A stretch of DNA of 64,000 bases from Candidatus Scatosoma sp. (GTDB lineage: Bacteria > Bacillota > Clostridia > Christensenellales > Borkfalkiaceae): contig JAZLDG010000074.1 of the NCBI GenBank assembly GCA_045614565.1, positions 38,561 through 102,560 on the forward strand, read 5' to 3'. How positions within the stretch are numbered: position 1 is the stretch's first letter; every line of letters starts with the position of its first letter. The notes under the pieces are model-generated. The model ran no database searches and had not been told where the DNA came from. It saw nothing but the letters and a program-made list of their open reading frames with translations. Positions 6,154 to 56,301 of the stretch are shown one piece after another. The translations under genes and the position numbers were made by a program.

Positions 6154-6434
6154 GTTAACCAATTCAATATAATCCGAACTCGATTTTGAGTGGCGAATTT
6201 TGGCGCATATTGCGTTAAAAGCCTTGTTAAATCGTCAGGTTTAACTTCGTCTTTTGCCTTATATTCACCTAAAATTCGCCTACTGAAAATTGCACACACG
6301 CAAAAGAGCGTATTTTCTGACGGATTTTGGTGAAGGTGCTCGCAGTTGTACCCGCGTACTACAAGGGCATATTTGCCGAAATGCGGCGAAAAGACGTCTT
6401 TTGCGCGAGTTCGGATTATATTGAATTGGTTAAC
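6154..6434. mobile_element. MITE-like non-autonomous element (281 bp) with perfect 29-bp terminal inverted repeats
   Basis: GTTAACCAATTCAATATAATCCGAACTCG at 6154..6182 is the exact reverse complement of 6406..6434. There is no credible CDS inside. A 57-bp copy of one end recurs at 53565..53621. Confidence 0.75.
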
Positions 6435-40859: not shown

Positions 40860-41390
40860 TCATTGCAAGATTTTTACAAGTTCTTTTAGATTTTTTCGTT
40901 TCTTTGTGCGGAGCTTATCTTCGTCCTTGGCGTAACCCAAAATAATCACGAGCCGAACGGTGCCGTCAAGAGCGCAAATACTTCGTATTTCTTCGTCGTT
41001 GAGCCAGCCGAGAATACACGTTCCAAGTCCTTGCGCCGTCGCTTCCGCCGTGATATACGCCGTAACGATACCGATATCGATCGAACGGTAATCGTTCTTT
41101 TTTACCTTTGCGCCCACCCCCGCCGTTAGCGCGTACGGCTTTTCCAAAATAACCAACGCCACAGGCGCATCGGTGGCAAATTTGTTCATTCCCATTCCTT
41201 GCGTAGCTTTTTCCACCCTTTTTGCGATTTCCCCGTAACAAACGGTAATTTGATAGGGTTGACCGTTACAAGCGGACGGAGCAAGCCGCGCCGCTTCTAA
41301 AATGCAATCAATTTTGTCCTGTTCCACTGCGCGGTCGGGGTTATAACTACGGCAAGATTGCCTTGTTTTTGCTATTTCACTAAAATCCAT
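40860..41390 (-). CDS. nitroreductase-family protein
   Basis: RQSCRSY...ILEAARLAPSACNGQP, typical of the nitroreductase fold. Confidence 0.8.
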   Translation of the reverse strand: MDFSEIAKTRQSCRSYNPDRAVEQDKIDCILEAARLAPSACNGQPYQITVCYGEIAKRVEKATQGMGMNKFATDAPVALVILEKPYALTAGVGAKVKKNDYRSIDIGIVTAYITAEATAQGLGTCILGWLNDEEIRSICALDGTVRLVIILGYAKDEDKLRTKKRKNLKELVKILQ

Positions 41391-41411
41391 CTTTTTCCCT
41401 TTTTGCTTAAT

Positions 41412-41455
41412 TGGTACTCCCGACGAGAATCGAACTCATAATTGTCCCTTAGGAG
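41412..41455 (-). pseudogene. orphaned 3' portion (44 nt, anticodon loop to CCA) of the host tRNA-Arg(CCU); attL-side junction
   Basis: Minus strand reads CTCCTAAGGGACAATTATGAGTTCGATTCTCGTCGGGAGTACCA. Its stems pair with the orphan 5' half at 48721..48758. Confidence 0.85.
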
Positions 41456-48720: not shown

Positions 48721-48758
48721 TTAGGAGGGGACTGTTATATCCATTTAACTACGGAAGC
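48721..48758 (-). pseudogene. orphaned 5' portion (38 nt) of the host tRNA-Arg(CCU); attR-side junction
   Basis: Minus strand reads GCTTCCGTAGTTAAATGGATATAACAGTCCCCTCCTAA. Its acceptor and anticodon stems are complementary to the 3' fragment at 41412..41455. Confidence 0.85.
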
Positions 48759-48806: not shown

Positions 48807-48894
48807 TGATTTTTATGGGAAAAGTTGAAATTTTGTAGTACGCTATTCCTTACGCGCTTGGTGGAAAACCGCCAAGCGCGTAAATTGAAATTGA

Positions 48895-51800
48895 TTATTC
48901 GCCGTCTTTTTTCAACGAAAGCATTTCGCCGTTCACTTCTATTTCGTCTTTTATCAGTCTTAACGCCGTTTCCATACGCTCCGTTAAGGCTTCCCCTGCG
49001 CGGGCAAAGCCAAGCTGCGAAGCAAGCAAACGGAACAAACCCGCTTTTTCCACCGTTACGTTTCTACGCAACAGCTCTTTAATCCCTGCAATCAGCTCCT
49101 GCAATTCAATATACTTGATATCCCGCGGCTCGTCGCCGTCCTTGGGCACGCGAAGCATCGGAACGGGTTTATTAATCAAATACAAAAATCCGTTCAAACG
49201 CACAATCCCCCAACGCTCGCAACCCTGCATGAGTTTGTTGAACTCGTCGTGCACGACGCCCGTCACCTTTTCCCGACCGCCAAACGCGAACACGATCCGT
49301 TTCAACAGCCATTCTTCGGAAACGGGAGCTTCCTTTTCCACGATCGCTCTCGTCATCTTCACGACGTCTTTTTTATACATTATACCAAGTCTGTTCTCGT
49401 CCAGCTTCTCATACTTGGGGAACTCGAAATGCTTTTCCTTGACCGCTTGTTCAAACGTCGTTTCCTTTTGCCCTTTGCTTTCCTTTTTCGGGGGATGCGC
49501 AATCGCGTACTTGACCGCCGTCAGCAAGCGTTCCTTTTCTACCCGTTTATTCGCAAACCAGTCGGTAGACCAAATACGGTAATACCGCCAGCCCATACGC
49601 TCCATAACTTCCTGCTGCAAGCGATCGCGATCTCTCGTCGTATGGGCGTCGCGATACGCCGCGCCGTCGCACTCGATCGCGAGCGCATATTCTTCCGTAT
49701 TCGGACGTTTGACCGCCAAATCGACCTTAAAGGACGAGCTTCCCAGCCGTTTTTCGACTTCAAAGCCTTCCGCCGTCAAAAAGTCGCAAATCTCCGCTTC
49801 CAAATCGGAATCGTGCGTAGCAAAAAGCTGCGTTTGCGACGTGGCGCGCGTAAGCGCGATATCGCCGTTTTCAGCGTAATCCAAATAATCCCGCAACAAT
49901 CTTGCTCCCACCGAGTTGGTACGCGAAATATCGATATCTCCGTAGTGCATAGACGAAACGAGCTGTACGTTATATTTCGCGCGCGTAACGGCAACGTTCA
50001 GGCGCCGTTCGCCGCCAGCACGGTTGACAGGGCCGAAATTGAGCAACAATTTCCCCTGCGCATCCTTGGCGTAAGCCACGCTGAAAATGATCACGTCGCG
50101 TTCGTCACCTTGTACCGTTTCCAAATTCTTGACGAAAAACGGCTCGCTGCGGTCGGATTTGAAAAACCAGTCCTTGGACGGGTCTTTTTTTCTGCGTTTG
50201 GTAATCAGTTTATCGATCAAGGTTTGTTGCGAAATACTAAACGCGACCACGCCGATACTTCTATCGGGATATTTTTCAATATTTTCAAACACGAGCTCGA
50301 CGACGCGTTCCGCTTCCAAGCGATTGGTTTTGCTCGTTCTGTCAAACACGCCGTCCACGTAAAAGTAATCGACGCCCAAGCCCTTTTTATCCTTTTGCGC
50401 CGAAGGGAAGGTCACAAGCTCTCCGTCGTAAAAATTCTCGTTAGAGAAGGAAATCAAGCGTTCAAAACGGCTTCTGTAATGCCATTTGAGCCGTCTTTGC
50501 GGGAAGGTCGTGGAGCAAAGATCCAAAATGGACTCGAAATCAGTAATATCTTCTTCTTCGCTATCGTCGAAATCGGCGGTGGAATTAAAGAAATTGCTCG
50601 GCGGCATTTGCTTGGAGTCGCCCACGACGATGAGCTGTTTTCCGCGATAAATCGCGCCGACCGCGTCCTGCGGGAAAATTTGCGAAGCTTCGTCGAATAC
50701 GACCACGTCAAATTGTATATCGGGGCTTAAAAAGGTACTTACGCTCAACGGCGACATCAAAAAGCAGGGTTTGAGCGTTTGTGCCAGCTCACCGATTTCC
50801 GACAGTAGCTGCCGTATGCCCTTTTGTTTGCGTTTTTTCTCGCCTTCGCGGAGCAAAATCGCAATACTGCTTCCTTGCGCGATCATATCCAAGGACGGTC
50901 TTTGCGCAGACAGCGTCGCTTTGATTTTCGCTTTATTGATATCGAAATGTAAATTGTCTTTTTCCTTGAACCGTTTTACCGTTTCGTCGTGCGGTATTCT
51001 TGCAAATTCCGCAAGCGCAGGCGTTTGGCCGAGTACCAAATCCGCCCATTGCGAATAGTAGGTTTTTTGGAACGTATCGCAAACGGCGGGGGCAGGTATG
51101 CGTTTATCAATGGTTTTATTGACGAACGTAAACAGCGACAAGGCTTTCAATTCGTCCAAAAGCTTCATAAACGAGCACCAGTGTCCAAGCTCGTCTACGC
51201 GGTCTAAACAGTCGCGGTATTTTTGCGTCAACGCGTCCAAAGGCGCGCGTTGCGTGTCGTACGCGTTCAAATCAAAGCGTTCTTTCAAACCTTTTTCCGC
51301 TTCGCCGTCCTTGGCAAACGCTTTTTCGTACGCGTCGAAAAATCTTGCAAACGAGCCGCGTTCGCTTTCAAATTCGCTCGGCGTATATTTTTGCAAACGC
51401 GCAAAGTCTACGTTTTCGGAATGAATTTCCGCCAACCGCGTCAATTCGTCGATCGCGCGCTTAAAATCCGTGTTGACCCCTGCGTAGTCCTTGCCCAACG
51501 CGTCCTTTACGCGATTTTCCAATTCGTCAAATTCGCGGAGCGTAGTTTGATACACGCAAAGATCGTCCATCGACGACACCGCTTTCTTATACGGGAGCTT
51601 TTTGCCGTTTCCCGTGCAGAAACGGATATCCTGCGCGATTGCTTTGTATTCCTTGGAAAACAAACGGGTGAAAAATCCGTCGTATTGCCGCGTTAATTTT
51701 TTATACAGTTCTTGTCCGTTGAGCTTATACACGTCTTGATCAAAGCGCATATCTAGCGCCTTTTTCTTTTGCAAAACGGTTTCGGCGAGCGTTTTCATCT

Positions 51801-53502
51801 TCCCACAAAGCTCTAATACGCGCGTATTTTCGCTTGATTTTAACAGCGTAGGCGTGATAAAACGCGCGTCTTTTAACAAGGCAAAGCATTTTTCAAGCGT
51901 TCGCGCGCCGTTTACGCCGTCTACGCACACGCCGTATTTGTCCTTGACGCTGTCGCGTAAAATCACGAGCGTATCGCAAAGGCTGATTGCGCCTTGAAAC
52001 TCCGCTTTGAGCTTGGTTACGGACGGATAGGAATAATCCCCGTCAACGTAACCGTACCAAACGTTCTTACGGTAGTCGTAGCCCACGGACTCGGTATATT
52101 CCGCGTATCGCGTCAACGCCGTTTCCGCTTTTTCGCCGTATTCTTCGCCCTTGCTAGGCAAATCCGAAATCACGAAATCCATCGTAGGCGCGTTTCGCCG
52201 CGCCGCGATTTCTTCAAATAAGCGGTACGCCGATTTATTGATAATCGGGCGGGGCGCGTGCAATTCTTTGGCGTATTCGTCCAAGCGTTCTTGCGCTTCT
52301 TTTTTCAGCCGAATTTCCCGATCCGCTTTATCCGAAACGCCGCTTTTTTGCAACTTCAAGGTATGGCAAAGCTCTTCGATAACCTGCTTTTTATTGGCTT
52401 TATGGCTGTGCAATTCCAAACAAAATTCTTCCAAGCCAACTTTTTTTAATTTATCGTATACGACGCTCAACGCCGCGAGTTTTTCAGAAACGAACAATAC
52501 CTTTTTTCCGTCGCCCATACATTCGGCGATGATATTCGTGATCGTTTGACTCTTGCCCGTTCCCGGAGGCCCTTGCAAGACGAAGCTTTCGCCTGCTTTG
52601 GCAAGCGCAATCGCTTCCCCTTGGCTGGAATCGGCGTCTACGACGTTACGCAAAGACAAAAGGTCGGGGGCAGGTATGCGTTCATTGTCCGTTTGTTCCA
52701 CCTTTTCGCCAAGCAAAGCGCGAATACAAGCGTTTTGCGCGATCTTGGGCGCGTTATCCTTTAAGTCCTTGTACATATTGATTTTCAAAAAAGAAAACGT
52801 ACCGATTTTACATTCCGTCGTCACCGTCCACTTCAACCGCGAAACGACGTCTTGTATCCGCAAGAAATACCCTTCGATCCCTTCGTCTTCGTCGTATTCG
52901 GGAAGCTTCACGCCGAACTCGTTTTGGAGCTTAAAGGAAAAAGTCGGATTGACGATCACTTCGTCGTCCGTTACGCGTACGTAGCAAGGCTCGACGGGAG
53001 ATTCGTTTTCAATGCAAACAGGAGCGAGCAAAATGGGCGCGCGCATACTCGTGGGCGCGTTTTCGTTTTCCCGCCAGTGAATAAAACCGAATGCAAGATA
53101 GGCGATATTGACGCCCGTTTCTTCCATTGCACTACGCGCTTTTTTACCGATGTTTTTCAGGGCTTGAATGGGTTTATTTTCGCTGTTATATACGAGAATT
53201 TGACGGTTTTTCACCTTTTTACGATAGGCGAGCAAATATTCGCCCTTGGTGATTTTTTGTTCTACACTTTCCCCGTCCCAAAGCGTGGTGGGAAGCGTAT
53301 AATCTTCGTCGTCTTCTTGCTTGGGATCGTATACTTCAAAGACGGCGGAATGTTCCGCGCGAGAAAATACCGTCGCAAAATCGGGATAGACGATTTCCGC
53401 CGTTCCCGTTTTCGTGTCCTTGAAATTGATCAAATTATTCCCCTTGCCCGTATCCAGCAATAAATCCGCCCATACGTGCAGTTTCTCCGTTCCCTTACTC
53501 AT
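48895..53502 (-). CDS. 1535-aa DUF4011-like / Upf1-like SF1 helicase / Vsr-DUF559-like endonuclease / DUF3320-like protein (Hhe-like)
   Basis: Helicase motifs: Walker A LQGPPGTGKSQT, motif II VVVFDEASQI, then LIVVGDSKQMPP, VQGDERDVIIFS and RLNVAVTRAK. The endonuclease-fold segment is FKVDLAV...ALAIECDGAAYRD...RDRLQQEVMERMGWRYYRIWSTDW. The long N- and C-terminal extensions fit DUF4011 and DUF3320 by layout. Confidence 0.8.
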   Translation of the reverse strand: MSKGTEKLHVWADLLLDTGKGNNLINFKDTKTGTAEIVYPDFATVFSRAEHSAVFEVYDPKQEDDEDYTLPTTLWDGESVEQKITKGEYLLAYRKKVKNRQILVYNSENKPIQALKNIGKKARSAMEETGVNIAYLAFGFIHWRENENAPTSMRAPILLAPVCIENESPVEPCYVRVTDDEVIVNPTFSFKLQNEFGVKLPEYDEDEGIEGYFLRIQDVVSRLKWTVTTECKIGTFSFLKINMYKDLKDNAPKIAQNACIRALLGEKVEQTDNERIPAPDLLSLRNVVDADSSQGEAIALAKAGESFVLQGPPGTGKSQTITNIIAECMGDGKKVLFVSEKLAALSVVYDKLKKVGLEEFCLELHSHKANKKQVIEELCHTLKLQKSGVSDKADREIRLKKEAQERLDEYAKELHAPRPIINKSAYRLFEEIAARRNAPTMDFVISDLPSKGEEYGEKAETALTRYAEYTESVGYDYRKNVWYGYVDGDYSYPSVTKLKAEFQGAISLCDTLVILRDSVKDKYGVCVDGVNGARTLEKCFALLKDARFITPTLLKSSENTRVLELCGKMKTLAETVLQKKKALDMRFDQDVYKLNGQELYKKLTRQYDGFFTRLFSKEYKAIAQDIRFCTGNGKKLPYKKAVSSMDDLCVYQTTLREFDELENRVKDALGKDYAGVNTDFKRAIDELTRLAEIHSENVDFARLQKYTPSEFESERGSFARFFDAYEKAFAKDGEAEKGLKERFDLNAYDTQRAPLDALTQKYRDCLDRVDELGHWCSFMKLLDELKALSLFTFVNKTIDKRIPAPAVCDTFQKTYYSQWADLVLGQTPALAEFARIPHDETVKRFKEKDNLHFDINKAKIKATLSAQRPSLDMIAQGSSIAILLREGEKKRKQKGIRQLLSEIGELAQTLKPCFLMSPLSVSTFLSPDIQFDVVVFDEASQIFPQDAVGAIYRGKQLIVVGDSKQMPPSNFFNSTADFDDSEEEDITDFESILDLCSTTFPQRRLKWHYRSRFERLISFSNENFYDGELVTFPSAQKDKKGLGVDYFYVDGVFDRTSKTNRLEAERVVELVFENIEKYPDRSIGVVAFSISQQTLIDKLITKRRKKDPSKDWFFKSDRSEPFFVKNLETVQGDERDVIIFSVAYAKDAQGKLLLNFGPVNRAGGERRLNVAVTRAKYNVQLVSSMHYGDIDISRTNSVGARLLRDYLDYAENGDIALTRATSQTQLFATHDSDLEAEICDFLTAEGFEVEKRLGSSSFKVDLAVKRPNTEEYALAIECDGAAYRDAHTTRDRDRLQQEVMERMGWRYYRIWSTDWFANKRVEKERLLTAVKYAIAHPPKKESKGQKETTFEQAVKEKHFEFPKYEKLDENRLGIMYKKDVVKMTRAIVEKEAPVSEEWLLKRIVFAFGGREKVTGVVHDEFNKLMQGCERWGIVRLNGFLYLINKPVPMLRVPKDGDEPRDIKYIELQELIAGIKELLRRNVTVEKAGLFRLLASQLGFARAGEALTERMETALRLIKDEIEVNGEMLSLKKDGE

Positions 53503-53564: not shown

Positions 53565-53621
53565 TTAACCAATTCAATATAATCCAAACTCGCGCAAAAG
53601 ACGTCTTTTCGCCGCATTTCG
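53565..53621. repeat. solo end (57 bp) of the MITE-like element
   Basis: TTAACCAATTCAATATAATCCAAACTCGCGCAAAAGACGTCTTTTCGCCGCATTTCG matches the reverse complement of 6377..6433 with 1 mismatch. No second end lies nearby. Confidence 0.8.
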
Positions 53622-53691: not shown

Positions 53692-53720
53692 ATTATAAAA
53701 CTTTTCGCGCGCGATGTCAA
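53692..53720 (-). promoter_or_regulatory. consensus sigma-70 promoter for the giant helicase gene
   Basis: Minus strand reads TTGACA (53715..53720), a 17-nt spacer, then TATAAT (53692..53697). This predicts a 5' UTR of about 180 nt. Confidence 0.6.
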
Positions 53721-53761
53721 TTACATTGTACGGCTATTTTTTGATCTTTTGCGCAAGCCGT

Positions 53762-53790
53762 TTGACTTTCTTTCCGCTTGGGTGTATAAT
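53762..53790 (+). promoter_or_regulatory. consensus promoter for the GNAT gene, positioned for a leaderless transcript
   Basis: TTGACT (53762..53767), a 17-nt spacer, then TATAAT (53785..53790). The ATG at 53797 is 7 nt after the -10 element. Confidence 0.5.
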
Positions 53791-53796
53791 AAAGGT

Positions 53797-54264
53797 ATGG
53801 AAACGAGACCTTTGTCCCCCTTTACCGAACGGGATTTTGAAAACTTATACGATTTTATGAAGCCGATTTGGCTGGAAACCTACGGACCGATTTTGCCGCA
53901 AGAACAAATTTTGTTCCTGTTGGATAAGTATTTTTCACAAAAGGGCTTGGCGCACTATAAAAGTCTTGGCTATCAGTACCGCAAAATAGACGACATCGGC
54001 GTGGTCGTGTTCGTCGACCGCGGGGAATATACCTATATGGACAAATTATACTTACTCCCCGCCGCACGCGGAAAACGGTATCCCGCGTTCGTGTTCGCCG
54101 AGCTTGCGAAAGCGGGCAAGGATATCGTACTCAACGCAAATTCGCACAATACCCGCGCCGTAAACTGTTATTTGAAAAACGGATTTGTGATTGAACGCGC
54201 AGAAGATATCGACCTTGGCAACGGTATGCTCAACCGCGATTTCGTAATGCGAAAAAAAATATAA
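53797..54264 (+). CDS. GNAT-family N-acetyltransferase
   Basis: About 155 aa with an acetyl-CoA-binding-like segment LLPAARGKRYPAFVFAEL and a C-terminal NTRAVNCYLKNGF. Confidence 0.7.
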   Translation: METRPLSPFTERDFENLYDFMKPIWLETYGPILPQEQILFLLDKYFSQKGLAHYKSLGYQYRKIDDIGVVVFVDRGEYTYMDKLYLLPAARGKRYPAFVFAELAKAGKDIVLNANSHNTRAVNCYLKNGFVIERAEDIDLGNGMLNRDFVMRKKI

Positions 54265-54312
54265 CCGTAAAGTTTACGCCCCCAAAGCCGAACAGCTTTG
54301 GGGGCGTACGTT

Positions 54313-56301
54313 TTATTCTAATTCAAACGCGCCCGTGTACAGTTGATAGTACGTACCCTTTTGCGCGATTAGCTGTTCGTGCGTGCCGCGCTCGATGATA
54401 TGACCGTGGTCAAGCACCATAATTGCGTTGGAATTGCGGACGGTGGAAAGTCTATGGGCGATTACGAACACCGTTCTGCCTTCCATCAGTTTATCCATAC
54501 CGTCGGTAACGAGTGCTTCCGTACGCGTATCGATACACGAAGTCGCTTCGTCCAAAATCATCGCGGGCGCGTCGGCAACCGCCACGCGGGCAATGGAAAG
54601 GAGTTGTCTTTGACCTTGGGAAAGGTTTGCGCCGTTGTTGGTAAGCACCGTTTCGTACCCGTCGGGCAAACGTCGGATAAAATCGTCTGCGTTGGCGAGC
54701 TTGGCGGCGGCGATACATTCTTCGTCCGTCGCGTCCAGCCGTCCGTAACGGATATTTTCCATTACCGTACCCGTAAACAAATTCGTGTCCTGCAAAACAA
54801 TCCCGAGCGAACGCCGTAAGTCGCTTTTACGGATTTTATTGATATTGATACCGTCGTAACGGATTTTTCCGTCGGCAATATCGTAAAAACGGTTGATAAG
54901 GTTGGTAATCGTCGTTTTTCCCGCGCCCGTCGCACCGACGAACGCGATTTTTTGCCCAGGTTTGGCGTACAGCGTAACGTCGGTAAGCACCTGTTTTTCG
55001 GGCACGTAGCCGAAATCGACCATATCCATTACGATATCCCCTTTCAGCTCGGTATACGTCGTCGTACCGTCCGTTTTATGGTAATGCTTCCAAGCCCAAA
55101 GCCCCGTACGCTCCTGCGTTTCCACGATTTCGCCGTTTTCATCCTTTTTGGCGTTCACGAGCGTTACGTAGCCTTCGTCCATTTCGGGCGGTTCGTCCAT
55201 AAGCGTAAACACGCGGCTTGCGCCCGCAAGACCCATTGCAATCATCGAAACCTGATGGGACATTTGGTTGACGATTTGTGAGAAATTCCTTGAAAAGCCC
55301 AAAAAGGCAACGATCGTACCGATATCAAGAATCGCTTTTTCCGCCGCGAACAGGTTAGAAAAACCGATATTAGGCACTTGTAAGGTAAATAACAACGCGC
55401 CGATAATAGCGATTAAAACGTAGGTGATGTTCCCGATATTGCCAAGGATCGGACCTAAAACGTTACCGAAAATATGCGCGCGCTCGCTATCCTTGAAAAG
55501 TTTTTCGTTCAACTCGTCAAAATTCTCTTTGGCTTTTTCTTCGTGGGTAAAGACTTTAACGACCTTTTGCCCTTTCATCATTTCTTCTACGAAGCCTTCT
55601 TCCATGGCAAGCGAAGATTGCTGCGCGACCATATATTTCGCGCTGTTTCCACCGATTTTCTTGACAACAAAGGTCATCGCCACCGTGCAAAAGCCCACGA
55701 CGATGGAGAGCCAGAAACTAAACGAAAGCATCATTCCCACGGAAACGACGAGCGTTAAGGCATTGGAAAACATATTTGGCAAGCTTTGTCCGATGATTTG
55801 CCGTACCGCGTCCGTGTCGTTCGTGTAACAGCTCATAATTTCGCCGTGCGCGTGGGTGTCGAAATATTTAATGGGGAGCGACTGCATTTTGGCGAACATT
55901 TCTTCGCGCAACCGATAGAGCATACCCTGCGTAACCGTCGCCATTATCCGCGAATATACGAAGTTTGCCACAACGACGAATCCGTACACCGACACCATCA
56001 TTACGATCAAACCCGTCAATACGCCGTACAAAGCGTCCGTCATACCGCCGCCCTTAATTGCGGGCGTAATGACTTCGTTGACGAGATCTTTCATATACAG
56101 CGTGGAAACCAAGCTCCCGAGTGAACTGAATATCAAGCACAGAAAGACGACGATCATTTGCCATTTATAATACTTAAACAGCATTTTCATAAGACGGGTA
56201 AACGTGCCTTTCTTGATCGCGCCCTTGGGAACGGGCATTGCGCGGCCACGCATCGGTTTTACCACGCGGGGTTTTTGTTCGTATTTCTTTTCTTCCGACA
56301 T
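54313..56301 (-). CDS. ABC transporter ATP-binding/permease (exporter half-transporter)
   Basis: Six-TM domain followed by Walker A GATGAGKTT, the signature LSQGQRQ and Walker B ILDEATS. Confidence 0.88.
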   Translation of the reverse strand: MSEEKKYEQKPRVVKPMRGRAMPVPKGAIKKGTFTRLMKMLFKYYKWQMIVVFLCLIFSSLGSLVSTLYMKDLVNEVITPAIKGGGMTDALYGVLTGLIVMMVSVYGFVVVANFVYSRIMATVTQGMLYRLREEMFAKMQSLPIKYFDTHAHGEIMSCYTNDTDAVRQIIGQSLPNMFSNALTLVVSVGMMLSFSFWLSIVVGFCTVAMTFVVKKIGGNSAKYMVAQQSSLAMEEGFVEEMMKGQKVVKVFTHEEKAKENFDELNEKLFKDSERAHIFGNVLGPILGNIGNITYVLIAIIGALLFTLQVPNIGFSNLFAAEKAILDIGTIVAFLGFSRNFSQIVNQMSHQVSMIAMGLAGASRVFTLMDEPPEMDEGYVTLVNAKKDENGEIVETQERTGLWAWKHYHKTDGTTTYTELKGDIVMDMVDFGYVPEKQVLTDVTLYAKPGQKIAFVGATGAGKTTITNLINRFYDIADGKIRYDGININKIRKSDLRRSLGIVLQDTNLFTGTVMENIRYGRLDATDEECIAAAKLANADDFIRRLPDGYETVLTNNGANLSQGQRQLLSIARVAVADAPAMILDEATSCIDTRTEALVTDGMDKLMEGRTVFVIAHRLSTVRNSNAIMVLDHGHIIERGTHEQLIAQKGTYYQLYTGAFELE

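What the first reader, a model, noticed from the sequence alone, without database searches (positions are those of the whole stretch)
48895..53502. Giant single-gene helicase-nuclease (Hhe-like architecture) immediately beside the tRNA integration hotspot
The 1535-aa protein has a long N-terminal region with the layout of DUF4011 and a complete Upf1-like SF1 helicase core (GPPGTGKSQT, VVFDEASQI, GDSKQMPP, QGDERD, VAVTRAK). It also has a Vsr/DUF559-type endonuclease fold (ALAIECDGAAYRD...GWRYYRIWSTDW) and a ~300-aa C-terminal region resembling DUF3320.

As far as I recall, this domain order is that of the single-gene Hhe system reported in the 2020 defence-island survey by Gao and colleagues, whose mechanism remains uncharacterised. 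I cannot verify family membership without HMMs.

Its composition is host-like, so it is not part of the AT-rich island. It abuts the same tRNA-Arg locus, has a consensus promoter (53692..53720) and has a long 5' UTR carrying a transposon scar. Together with the island cargo this makes a two-locus defence neighbourhood.
Basis: partly seen in the sequence, partly recalled or inferred. Interest (0 to 1): 0.6.

Follow-up and report, generated by a model that had tools for sequence, protein, structure and literature searches.

The report
Prometheus-like helicase-nuclease defence candidate gene
This is an intact 1535-residue gene that fuses an unwinding motor to a DNA-cutting domain; it belongs to an already catalogued family of one-gene candidate anti-phage proteins (PDC-S37, closest to Prometheus/ProA, a cousin of Hhe), so it is a real but fairly ordinary member.

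Summary
HMMs confirm DUF4011, an Upf1-like SF1 helicase and an MTES_1575 (Vsr/DUF559-clan) nuclease. DUF3320 scores just under Pfam's threshold.

The family is not Hhe:
- PADLOC PDC-S37 matches end to end (1374 bits).
- NCBIfam ProA (Prometheus) is next (1242 bits, cut-off 1500; ProA's first ~356 positions are missing).
- Hhe is far weaker (858 bits against a cut-off of 2000).

It is an accessory single gene. It occurs in 10 of 60 same-genus genomes (Candidatus Scatosoma, gut Clostridia). The eight loci compared (window plus seven relatives) shared no neighbour gene. It is under purifying selection (dN/dS 0.08-0.13).

The same genome also carries a ~1884-aa ProA-type paralog. That paralog matched in all 24 same-genus genomes searched and has lost a nuclease hallmark residue.

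The link to the island looks incidental. A conspecific strain has the same gene, promoter and MITE scar beside an unsplit tRNA-Arg(CCT).

Most likely it is a self-contained sensor-motor-nuclease that cuts phage replication or transcription intermediates. This rests on homology only.

This scan has met the family repeatedly on other genomes, with the same reading. Verdict: new member of a known kind, low interest.

The parts
48895..53502 (-). Whole gene, 1535 aa: short-form DUF4011 helicase-nuclease (PDC-S37 / Prometheus-like)
   Evidence: ORF and translation. PDC-S37 scores 1373.7 bits over residues 5-1529. ProA scores 1241.9 bits on profile positions 357-1903.
52633..53502 (-). N-terminal DUF4011 domain (residues 1-290)
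   Evidence: Pfam DUF4011, E 7e-35. The AF2 model has pLDDT 82.6 and pTM 0.77. It has no structural match in the PDB (best probability 0.13). Invariant residues include W11, D17, N22, E128, G130, Y135, W143, N185 and W225.
52213..52632 (-). Helicase RecA1 N-part with Walker A GPPGTGKSQT (residues 291-430)
   Evidence: Pfam AAA_11 and AAA_19. Residues 311-323 are invariant in 17 sequences. PDB sequence matches to IGHMBP2.
50803..52212 (-). About 470-aa insertion inside the helicase core (residues 431-900)
   Evidence: No Pfam family. Aligned end to end by the PDC-S37 and ProA models, so it is standard for the family. One of the two fastest-evolving parts (69% identity, dN/dS 0.16 against the nearest species).
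49903..50802 (-). Helicase motifs II-VI (residues 901-1200): DEASQ, GDxxQxPP, WHYRS, QGDERD, RRLNVAxTRA
   Evidence: Pfam AAA_12. The motifs are invariant. PDB sequence matches to Upf1/NAM7 and Sen1 cores at E about 1e-10.
49516..49800 (-). PD-(D/E)xK nuclease domain, MTES_1575 / Vsr-like fold (residues 1235-1329)
   Evidence: Pfam PF18741, E 2e-29. D1261, E1277, D1279 and R1290-D1293 are conserved. The AF2 model matches the DUF559-like protein 3hrl and the I-Bth0305I catalytic domain 3r3p (TM to target 0.75-0.76, probability 1.0).
48898..49497 (-). C-terminal tail (residues 1336-1535): DUF3320-like, two winged-helix modules
   Evidence: Pfam DUF3320 scores 23.6 bits, below the gathering score of 25. 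The AF2 model has pLDDT above 90 over most of the tail. Local fold matches to winged-helix domains: E2F-DP, cullin WHB, Rok, Rpc5.
53692..53720 (-). Consensus sigma-70-type promoter-like site for the gene
   Evidence: TTGACA-17-TATAAT, 12 of 12 positions. Conserved in the conspecific contig L039. It is a consensus match only; transcription was not tested.
53565..53621 (.). Solo MITE end between the promoter-like site and the start codon
   Evidence: 57 bp, 98% identical to window 6377..6433 and to copies on contigs C77 and C105. Also present in L039.
48852..48881 (-). Strong hairpin directly after the stop codon (no U-tract)
   Evidence: RNA fold -25.7 kcal/mol, z-score -5.5 against shuffles.

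Best explanation
The gene encodes a stand-alone, single-polypeptide helicase-nuclease of the PDC-S37 family. This is the short form of the Prometheus (ProA) lineage and a sister of Hhe.

Most likely it is an accessory anti-phage gene. Its predicted parts are:
- an N-terminal DUF4011 domain;
- an Upf1-like SF1B motor, which by class moves 5'->3' on a single strand;
- a ~470-residue insertion in the motor;
- a PD-(D/E)xK nuclease;
- two C-terminal winged helices.

The proposed mechanism is that the protein recognises nucleic-acid structures made during phage replication or transcription, such as forks, flaps or R-loops. ATP-driven translocation then delivers or licenses the nuclease to cut DNA. 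This either destroys the phage genome or aborts the infection.

Shown here: intact catalytic motifs, family membership, accessory and context-free distribution, and purifying selection. Inferred from homologs only: the anti-phage role, the substrate and the order of events. Its position beside the tRNA-Arg island is coincidental, because the island targets the tRNA and not this gene.
For: **Family.** PDC-S37 scores 1373.7 bits end to end. ProA scores 1241.9 bits and Hhe 858 bits.

**Catalytic motifs.** All SF1 helicase motifs are invariant in 17 sequences. The nuclease residues D1261, E1277 and D1279 are conserved: D1261 and D1279 in all 17, E1277 in 16 (the exception is the long paralog). The nuclease fold matches 3hrl and 3r3p. 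The helicase core is nearest to Upf1, IGHMBP2 and Sen1.

**Accessory distribution.** The short form is in 10 of 60 same-genus genomes and in 11 of 151 genomes of the order.

**No partner gene.** The window and seven related loci share no flanking gene family.

**Selection.** dN/dS is 0.077 against a conspecific strain and 0.127 against the nearest species. The insertion and the tail evolve fastest.

**Independence from the island.** The conspecific contig L039 has the gene next to an unsplit tRNA-Arg.

**Literature.** Prometheus ProA of P. aeruginosa was experimentally validated, and all four domains are required; this is as summarised in PMC13700489. Hhe is a single-gene helicase-nuclease defence that responds to T7 DNA-metabolism genes (PMC11482910).
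Against: - No experiment exists for PDC-S37. Most PDC candidates are unvalidated (PMC12988326).
- The protein is below the curated NCBIfam cut-offs of both validated relatives.
- Neighbours at nine related loci are mostly metabolic or transport genes, with only sporadic defence or mobility hits.
- In a sister clade of eight species the gene keeps one conserved synteny block, like an inherited chromosomal gene.
- Its composition is host-like.
- The primary Prometheus paper was not readable here.
Confidence: 0.6

Rival explanations
1. It is a dispensable genome-maintenance enzyme, for example one that processes R-loops, stalled forks or flaps, like the eukaryotic Sen1 or DNA2-type enzymes. It is not an immune gene, and any effect on phage would be incidental.
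For: - Host-like composition.
- Neighbours are mostly metabolic.
- Fixed synteny in eight species of a sister clade.
- Strong purifying selection.
- A ProA-type paralog matches in all 24 same-genus genomes searched and sits between a DHH phosphoesterase gene and comEC-holA.
- The P. aeruginosa DUF4011 gene is a core gene (PMC10250203).
Against: - The short form is in only 10 of 60 genus genomes and 11 of 151 order genomes.
- The eight loci compared (window plus seven relatives) share no flanking gene family.
- The nearest characterised relatives are scored as anti-phage proteins.
Confidence: 0.25
2. It is a true member of the Hhe family of Gao et al. 2020.
For: Same overall domain order. The Hhe models give significant partial hits.
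Against: NCBIfam Hhe scores 858 bits against a cut-off of 2000. PADLOC Hhe scores 583 bits and covers only residues 754-1319. PDC-S37 and ProA score far higher and align along the whole length.
Confidence: 0.03
3. It works together with the adjacent GmrSD-carrying tRNA-Arg island as a two-locus defence neighbourhood, or is itself old cargo of an island at this tRNA.
For: The gene ends 137 bp from the tRNA-Arg(CCU) that the island split. A tRNA gene lies within 400 bp of the 3' end in 4 of 25 loci examined; two of these are tRNA-Arg(CCU).
Against: - The conspecific strain L039 has the gene, promoter and MITE scar with an unsplit tRNA.
- No tRNA fragments or att remnants lie upstream of the gene.
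- The gene lies 5' of the tRNA, which is not where tRNA-targeting islands sit.
- Composition is host-like while the island is AT-rich.
- No integrase lies beyond the tRNAs in L054 and L055.
Confidence: 0.05

Closest known systems
PDC-S37 (PADLOC-DB v2.0.0 single-gene 'phage defence candidate', model PDLC05009)
   Same: End-to-end HMM match (1373.7 bits; residues 5-1529 on profile positions 7-1545 of 1550). Same length class (~1550 aa) and same single-gene layout.
   Different: No difference detected. The family itself is a candidate found by genomic association. I found no experimental validation in the held literature.
Prometheus / ProA of Pseudomonas aeruginosa (NCBIfam NF058533; van den Berg et al. 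2024, Cell Host Microbe, as summarised in PMC13700489)
   Same: Four-part architecture: DUF4011, a helicase with a large insertion, a nuclease and a DUF3320-type tail. It is a single protein, and it is the best-scoring validated relative (1242 bits).
   Different: It lacks the first ~356 profile positions of ProA and is below the equivalog cut-off of 1500. The longer paralog in the same genome (P0002, 1884 aa) has that N-terminal region and scores 1483 bits.
Hhe (Gao et al. 2020; NCBIfam NF042953, PADLOC PDLC02194)
   Same: A single-gene DUF4011 protein with an SF1 helicase and a Vsr-clan nuclease, with proven anti-phage activity in E. coli (PMC11482910).
   Different: It scores only 858 bits against a cut-off of 2000, and only part of the length aligns. 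It is a sister family, not this family.
Upf1-like SF1B helicases (Upf1/NAM7, IGHMBP2, Sen1)
   Same: Helicase core motifs; these are the only solved-structure relatives by sequence (E about 1e-10).
   Different: These are eukaryotic RNA/DNA helicases without the DUF4011 domain, the ~470-aa insertion, the nuclease or the winged-helix tail.

Membership tests
PDC-S37 (PADLOC candidate) | Full-length match to the family HMM PDLC05009 | tested here: met
   1373.7 bits, E = 0, residues 5-1529 on profile positions 7-1545 of 1550. The whole-genome search gives the same result.
PDC-S37 (PADLOC candidate) | Single-gene system with no obligatory partner gene | tested here: met
   The window and seven related loci share no flanking gene family. 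The sister clade has conserved neighbours, but these look like ordinary synteny.
Prometheus / ProA | Score at or above the NCBIfam equivalog cut-off (1500 bits) for NF058533 | tested here: not met
   1241.9 bits. It aligns to profile positions 357-1903 only, so ProA's N-terminal ~356 positions are absent.
Prometheus / ProA | Four-domain organisation: DUF4011, a helicase with a characteristic large insertion, a nuclease and DUF3320 (as described in PMC13700489) | tested here: met
   Pfam finds DUF4011, AAA_11/AAA_12 split by a ~470-aa insert, and MTES_1575. DUF3320 is marginal at 23.6 bits against 25.
Prometheus / ProA | Protection against phage that depends on all domains | not testable with these tools
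   Needs cloning and a phage challenge.
Hhe | Score at or above the NCBIfam equivalog cut-off (2000 bits) for NF042953, or a full-length PADLOC Hhe match | tested here: not met
   NCBIfam gives 858.4 bits in 3 stretches. PADLOC Hhe gives 583 bits with its best stretch over residues 754-1319.
Upf1-like SF1B helicase | Intact motifs I, Ia, II, III, IV, V and VI | tested here: met
   GPPGTGKSQT, DEASQ, GDxxQxPP, WHYRS, QGDERD and RRLNVAxTRA are invariant in 17 sequences. PDB hits to Upf1, IGHMBP2 and Sen1.
PD-(D/E)xK nuclease, MTES_1575 / Vsr-DUF559 clan | Family HMM above threshold, acidic catalytic residues present, matching fold | tested here: met
   PF18741 scores 102 bits against a cut-off of 38. 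D1261, E1277 and D1279 are conserved. The fold matches 3hrl and 3r3p at TM to target 0.75. Position 1284 is R here, where 9 of 17 relatives have H.
Defence-island gene | Recurrent embedding among known defence or mobile genes | tested here: inconclusive
   In the window it abuts a GmrSD island. In the 45 neighbouring proteins of nine related loci, Pfam hits are mostly metabolic or transport and PADLOC hits are sporadic.

The most novel reading that the evidence does not exclude
The accessory short form, with an intact nuclease, does not act alone. It may cooperate with the core ProA-type long paralog of the same genome, whose nuclease has lost a hallmark glutamate. One could supply sensing or regulation and the other the cutting. 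This would be a two-paralog division of labour in a family thought to be strictly single-protein. The evidence does not exclude it: all 24 same-genus genomes searched gave a match to the long form. Nothing tested here supports an interaction.
Probability: 0.06. Interest if true: 0.55.

Novelty: new member of a known kind. Interest (0 to 1): 0.2.

Why it matters
It matters little on its own. The gene adds one more intact, selected member to a very large family: the DUF4011 domain alone has about 5,800 clusters at 50% identity. Two relatives in that family are proven anti-phage proteins with unknown mechanism.

The useful points are practical:
- Readers should file such ~1,530-aa proteins under PDC-S37 / Prometheus-like, not under Hhe.
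- Candidatus Scatosoma offers a natural contrast within one genome. The accessory short form has an intact nuclease; the core long form has a degraded one. This contrast could help separate defence roles from housekeeping roles in this family.
- The DUF4011 domain gives a confident model with no solved structural relative, so it remains the main unknown of the family.

Tried and rejected
1. E. coli genome collection: no match. The organism is a gut Clostridia MAG (Candidatus Scatosoma by the titles of relatives).
2. Hhe membership: rejected on HMM scores.
3. Shared synteny downstream of the core ABC transporter: 12 relatives lack the gene there. The block that follows ABC2 in relatives lies on another contig (C53) in this genome, so the gene sits at a synteny break.
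4. Old island cargo: no tRNA-Arg fragments upstream of the gene. No integrase beyond the tRNAs at two other tRNA-adjacent loci.
5. Fold search of DUF4011 against the PDB: nothing credible.
6. Pfam on the ~470-aa insert and on the extra N-terminus of the long paralog: no family.
7. The primary Prometheus paper (doi 10.1016/j.chom.2024.07.007) is not held, and 'PDC-S37' appears in no held paper.
10. An ungapped dN/dS against L038 was invalid; I redid it on a codon alignment.
Full report
**Observation**

The minus-strand ORF at 48895..53502 is open for 1535 codons from an ATG.

Pfam finds:
- DUF4011 at residues 15-192 (E 7e-35);
- AAA_11 at 291-423 and AAA_12 at 1000-1184, the two halves of an SF1 helicase;
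- the MTES_1575 restriction-endonuclease fold at 1235-1329 (E 2e-29);
- a marginal DUF3320 hit at 1376-1408 (23.6 bits against a gathering score of 25).

The gene has host-like composition. GC is 0.49 and GC3 is 0.586, like the neighbouring ABC-transporter, sbcC and clpB genes (GC3 0.596-0.621). The island genes next door have GC3 of 0.27-0.40.

A perfect TTGACA-17-TATAAT lies at 53720..53692. The region as a whole has no excess of promoter-like sites over shuffles. The 57-bp MITE end at 53565..53621 is real and has other copies in the genome. A strong hairpin (-25.7 kcal/mol, z -5.5) follows the stop codon. After it come the host tRNA promoter and the 5' half of the tRNA-Arg(CCU) that the island split.

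**Which family**

| Model | Score | Coverage |
|---|---|---|
| PADLOC PDC-S37 | 1373.7 bits | residues 5-1529 on profile 7-1545 of 1550 |
| PADLOC Hhe | 583 bits | best stretch over residues 754-1319 |
| NCBIfam ProA (NF058533) | 1241.9 bits (cut-off 1500) | profile positions 357-1903 |
| NCBIfam Hhe (NF042953) | 858 bits (cut-off 2000) | partial, 3 stretches |

The PADLOC results are and the NCBIfam results.

ProA is the single protein of the Prometheus system of P. aeruginosa (van den Berg et al. 2024). I could not read that paper. PMC13700489 summarises it as follows:
- It is a validated single-protein defence.
- It is related to eukaryotic R-loop-acting enzymes.
- It has four domains and a characteristic insertion.
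- All four domains are required.

PDC systems are candidates found by 'guilt by embedding', and most are unvalidated (PMC12988326). So the protein belongs to PDC-S37. It is a short-form relative of ProA that lacks ProA's N-terminal ~356 positions, and it is a cousin of Hhe, not Hhe itself. NCBI names its close homologs only 'DUF4011 domain-containing protein'.

**Anatomy**

I aligned 17 sequences, including the long paralog. All helicase motifs are invariant:
- GPPGTGKSQT at 311-320
- DEASQ at 937-941
- GDxxQxPP at 961-968
- WHYRS at 1007-1011
- QGDERD at 1131-1136
- RRLNVAxTRA at 1166-1175

By sequence, the only solved relatives are the Upf1/NAM7, IGHMBP2 and Sen1 helicase cores. These belong to the SF1B class, which moves 5'->3'.

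A ~470-residue segment (431-900) splits the motor. It matches no Pfam family, but the family HMMs cover it, so it is standard for the family.

The nuclease keeps D1261, E1277, D1279 and the RDRDR block. Position 1284 is R here, where 9 of 17 relatives have H.

An AF2 model of residues 1190-1535 (pLDDT 83) shows two things:
- The nuclease part matches the DUF559-like protein 3hrl and the I-Bth0305I catalytic domain (TM to target 0.75-0.76).
- The tail forms two winged-helix modules.

An AF2 model of the DUF4011 region (pLDDT 82.6, pTM 0.77) has no credible match in the PDB.

**Distribution and context**

The genome is a 1.74-Mb MAG. Relatives are titled Candidatus Scatosoma, from gut Clostridia.

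- Genus level: full-length orthologs (53-66% identity) occur in 10 of 60 same-genus genomes. The adjacent ABC transporter is in 55 of 60, at 70-82% identity.
- Order level: the short form was found in 11 of 151 genomes.
- Flanks: the window and seven related loci share no flanking gene family.
- Neighbours: 45 neighbouring proteins from nine loci are mostly metabolic or transport proteins. Defence or recombinase hits are sporadic.
- Sister clade: eight species (47-49% identity) keep the gene in one conserved synteny block.
- Local synteny: in 12 other genus members a different conserved block follows the ABC transporter. In this genome that block lies on contig C53, so the gene sits at a synteny break.
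- Nearest other species (79% identity): the gene follows ROK and SIS genes and precedes a 3710-aa LRR protein, with no tRNA nearby.

Selection is purifying. dN/dS is 0.077 against a conspecific contig (45 nucleotide and 10 amino-acid differences). It is 0.127 against the nearest species. The insert (0.16) and the tail (0.22) evolve fastest, and the motor slowest (0.05-0.07).

**Relation to the island**

A conspecific metagenome contig (L039; protein 99% identical) carries the same promoter, MITE scar and gene. These are followed by an unsplit tRNA-Arg(CCU). Its sequence equals the window's right junction joined to its left junction. So the gene predates the island and is independent of it.

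No tRNA fragments lie upstream of the gene. The 93 bp after the tRNA in L039 are absent from this genome, so the tRNA's 3' side varies between strains.

A tRNA gene lies within 400 bp of the gene's 3' end in 4 of 25 loci examined:
- tRNA-Arg(CCU) in the window;
- tRNA-Arg(CCU) in a genome of another family;
- tRNA-Ser(GGA) in L054;
- tRNA-Leu(CAA) in L055.

By a rough estimate from tRNA density, about 0.3 such cases would be expected by chance. There are no integrases beyond the tRNAs in L054 and L055. I leave this unexplained.

**The paralog**

The same genome encodes a 1884-aa relative on contig C68.
- It scores 1483 bits on ProA, just under the cut-off, and includes ProA's N-terminal region.
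- All 24 same-genus genomes searched gave a match to this form.
- Its orthologs are 72-91% identical.
- It lies between a DHH phosphoesterase gene and comEC-holA.
- Its nuclease motif reads AIMCD instead of AIECD.

So the genus has a core long form with a degraded nuclease centre and, in a minority of species, an accessory short form with an intact one.

**Mechanism**

Shown here: an intact SF1B motor, an intact PD-(D/E)xK site, a winged-helix tail, a conserved N-terminal domain with no solved structural relative, no partner gene, and purifying selection.

Inferred from Prometheus and Hhe: the protein senses phage replication or transcription intermediates, translocates on one strand and cuts DNA. 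For Hhe, PhageMaP found T7 DNA-metabolism genes and a Bas63 gene as triggers, with toxicity on co-expression (PMC11482910). That fits sensing of a process and not of a single phage protein.

I put 0.6 on the defence reading. I put 0.25 on a dispensable genome-maintenance role.

**Verdict**

This scan has already described the same family on other genomes with the same reading. My HMM, distribution and structure tests reach that reading independently. It is a new member of a known kind, of low interest.

Noticed in passing
G000 contig C68:3417-9071 (locus L007:3417-9071): A second, longer (1884 aa) ProA-type DUF4011 helicase-nuclease in the same genome. It scores 1483 bits on ProA (cut-off 1500). 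All 24 same-genus genomes searched gave a match to it, and its orthologs are 72-91% identical. It is flanked by a DHH phosphoesterase gene and by comEC and holA. Its nuclease motif has E->M (AIMCD). Its extra 375-aa N-terminus matches no Pfam family.
   Followed up: partly
L034:12767-12843, L054:7830-7919, L055:7933-8020 and window 48721-48758: A tRNA gene lies within 400 bp of the 3' end of the short-form gene in 4 of 25 loci examined. Two are tRNA-Arg(CCU), in different bacterial families; the others are tRNA-Ser(GGA) and tRNA-Leu(CAA). This is more than a rough chance estimate of about 0.3. No integrase lies beyond the tRNAs in L054 and L055. Unexplained.
   Followed up: partly
L039:8691-8783 versus window 41380-41412: In a conspecific strain the tRNA-Arg(CCU) is unsplit, but the 93 bp after its 3' end (with a terminator hairpin) occur nowhere in this genome. 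In the window the tRNA 3' half runs almost directly into the nitroreductase gene. The 3' side of this tRNA is therefore also strain-variable.
   Followed up: partly
window 53749-56301 and G000 contig C53:31.7-48.9 kb: In 12 other genus members a conserved gene block follows the ABC-transporter pair after 0-6 variable genes. In this genome that block is on another contig, so a synteny break lies right at the GNAT / helicase-nuclease / tRNA-Arg segment.
   Followed up: partly
L042-L049 (eight Clostridia/Christensenella-labelled MAGs): Short-form orthologs (47-49% identity) sit in one conserved block of about eight flanking gene families across eight species. In that clade the gene behaves like an inherited chromosomal gene, unlike in Scatosoma.
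   Followed up: partly
window 53749-54264 (+): A small weakly GNAT-like acetyltransferase gene (best Pfam hits just below threshold) is transcribed divergently from the helicase-nuclease gene. Near-consensus promoters sit back to back at 53762-53790 (+) and 53720-53692 (-).
   Followed up: no
L038:8405-14608: In the nearest other species the ortholog starts 20 bp after a SIS-domain gene that follows a ROK-family gene. There it may be co-transcribed with sugar-metabolism genes and lack its own promoter.
   Followed up: no
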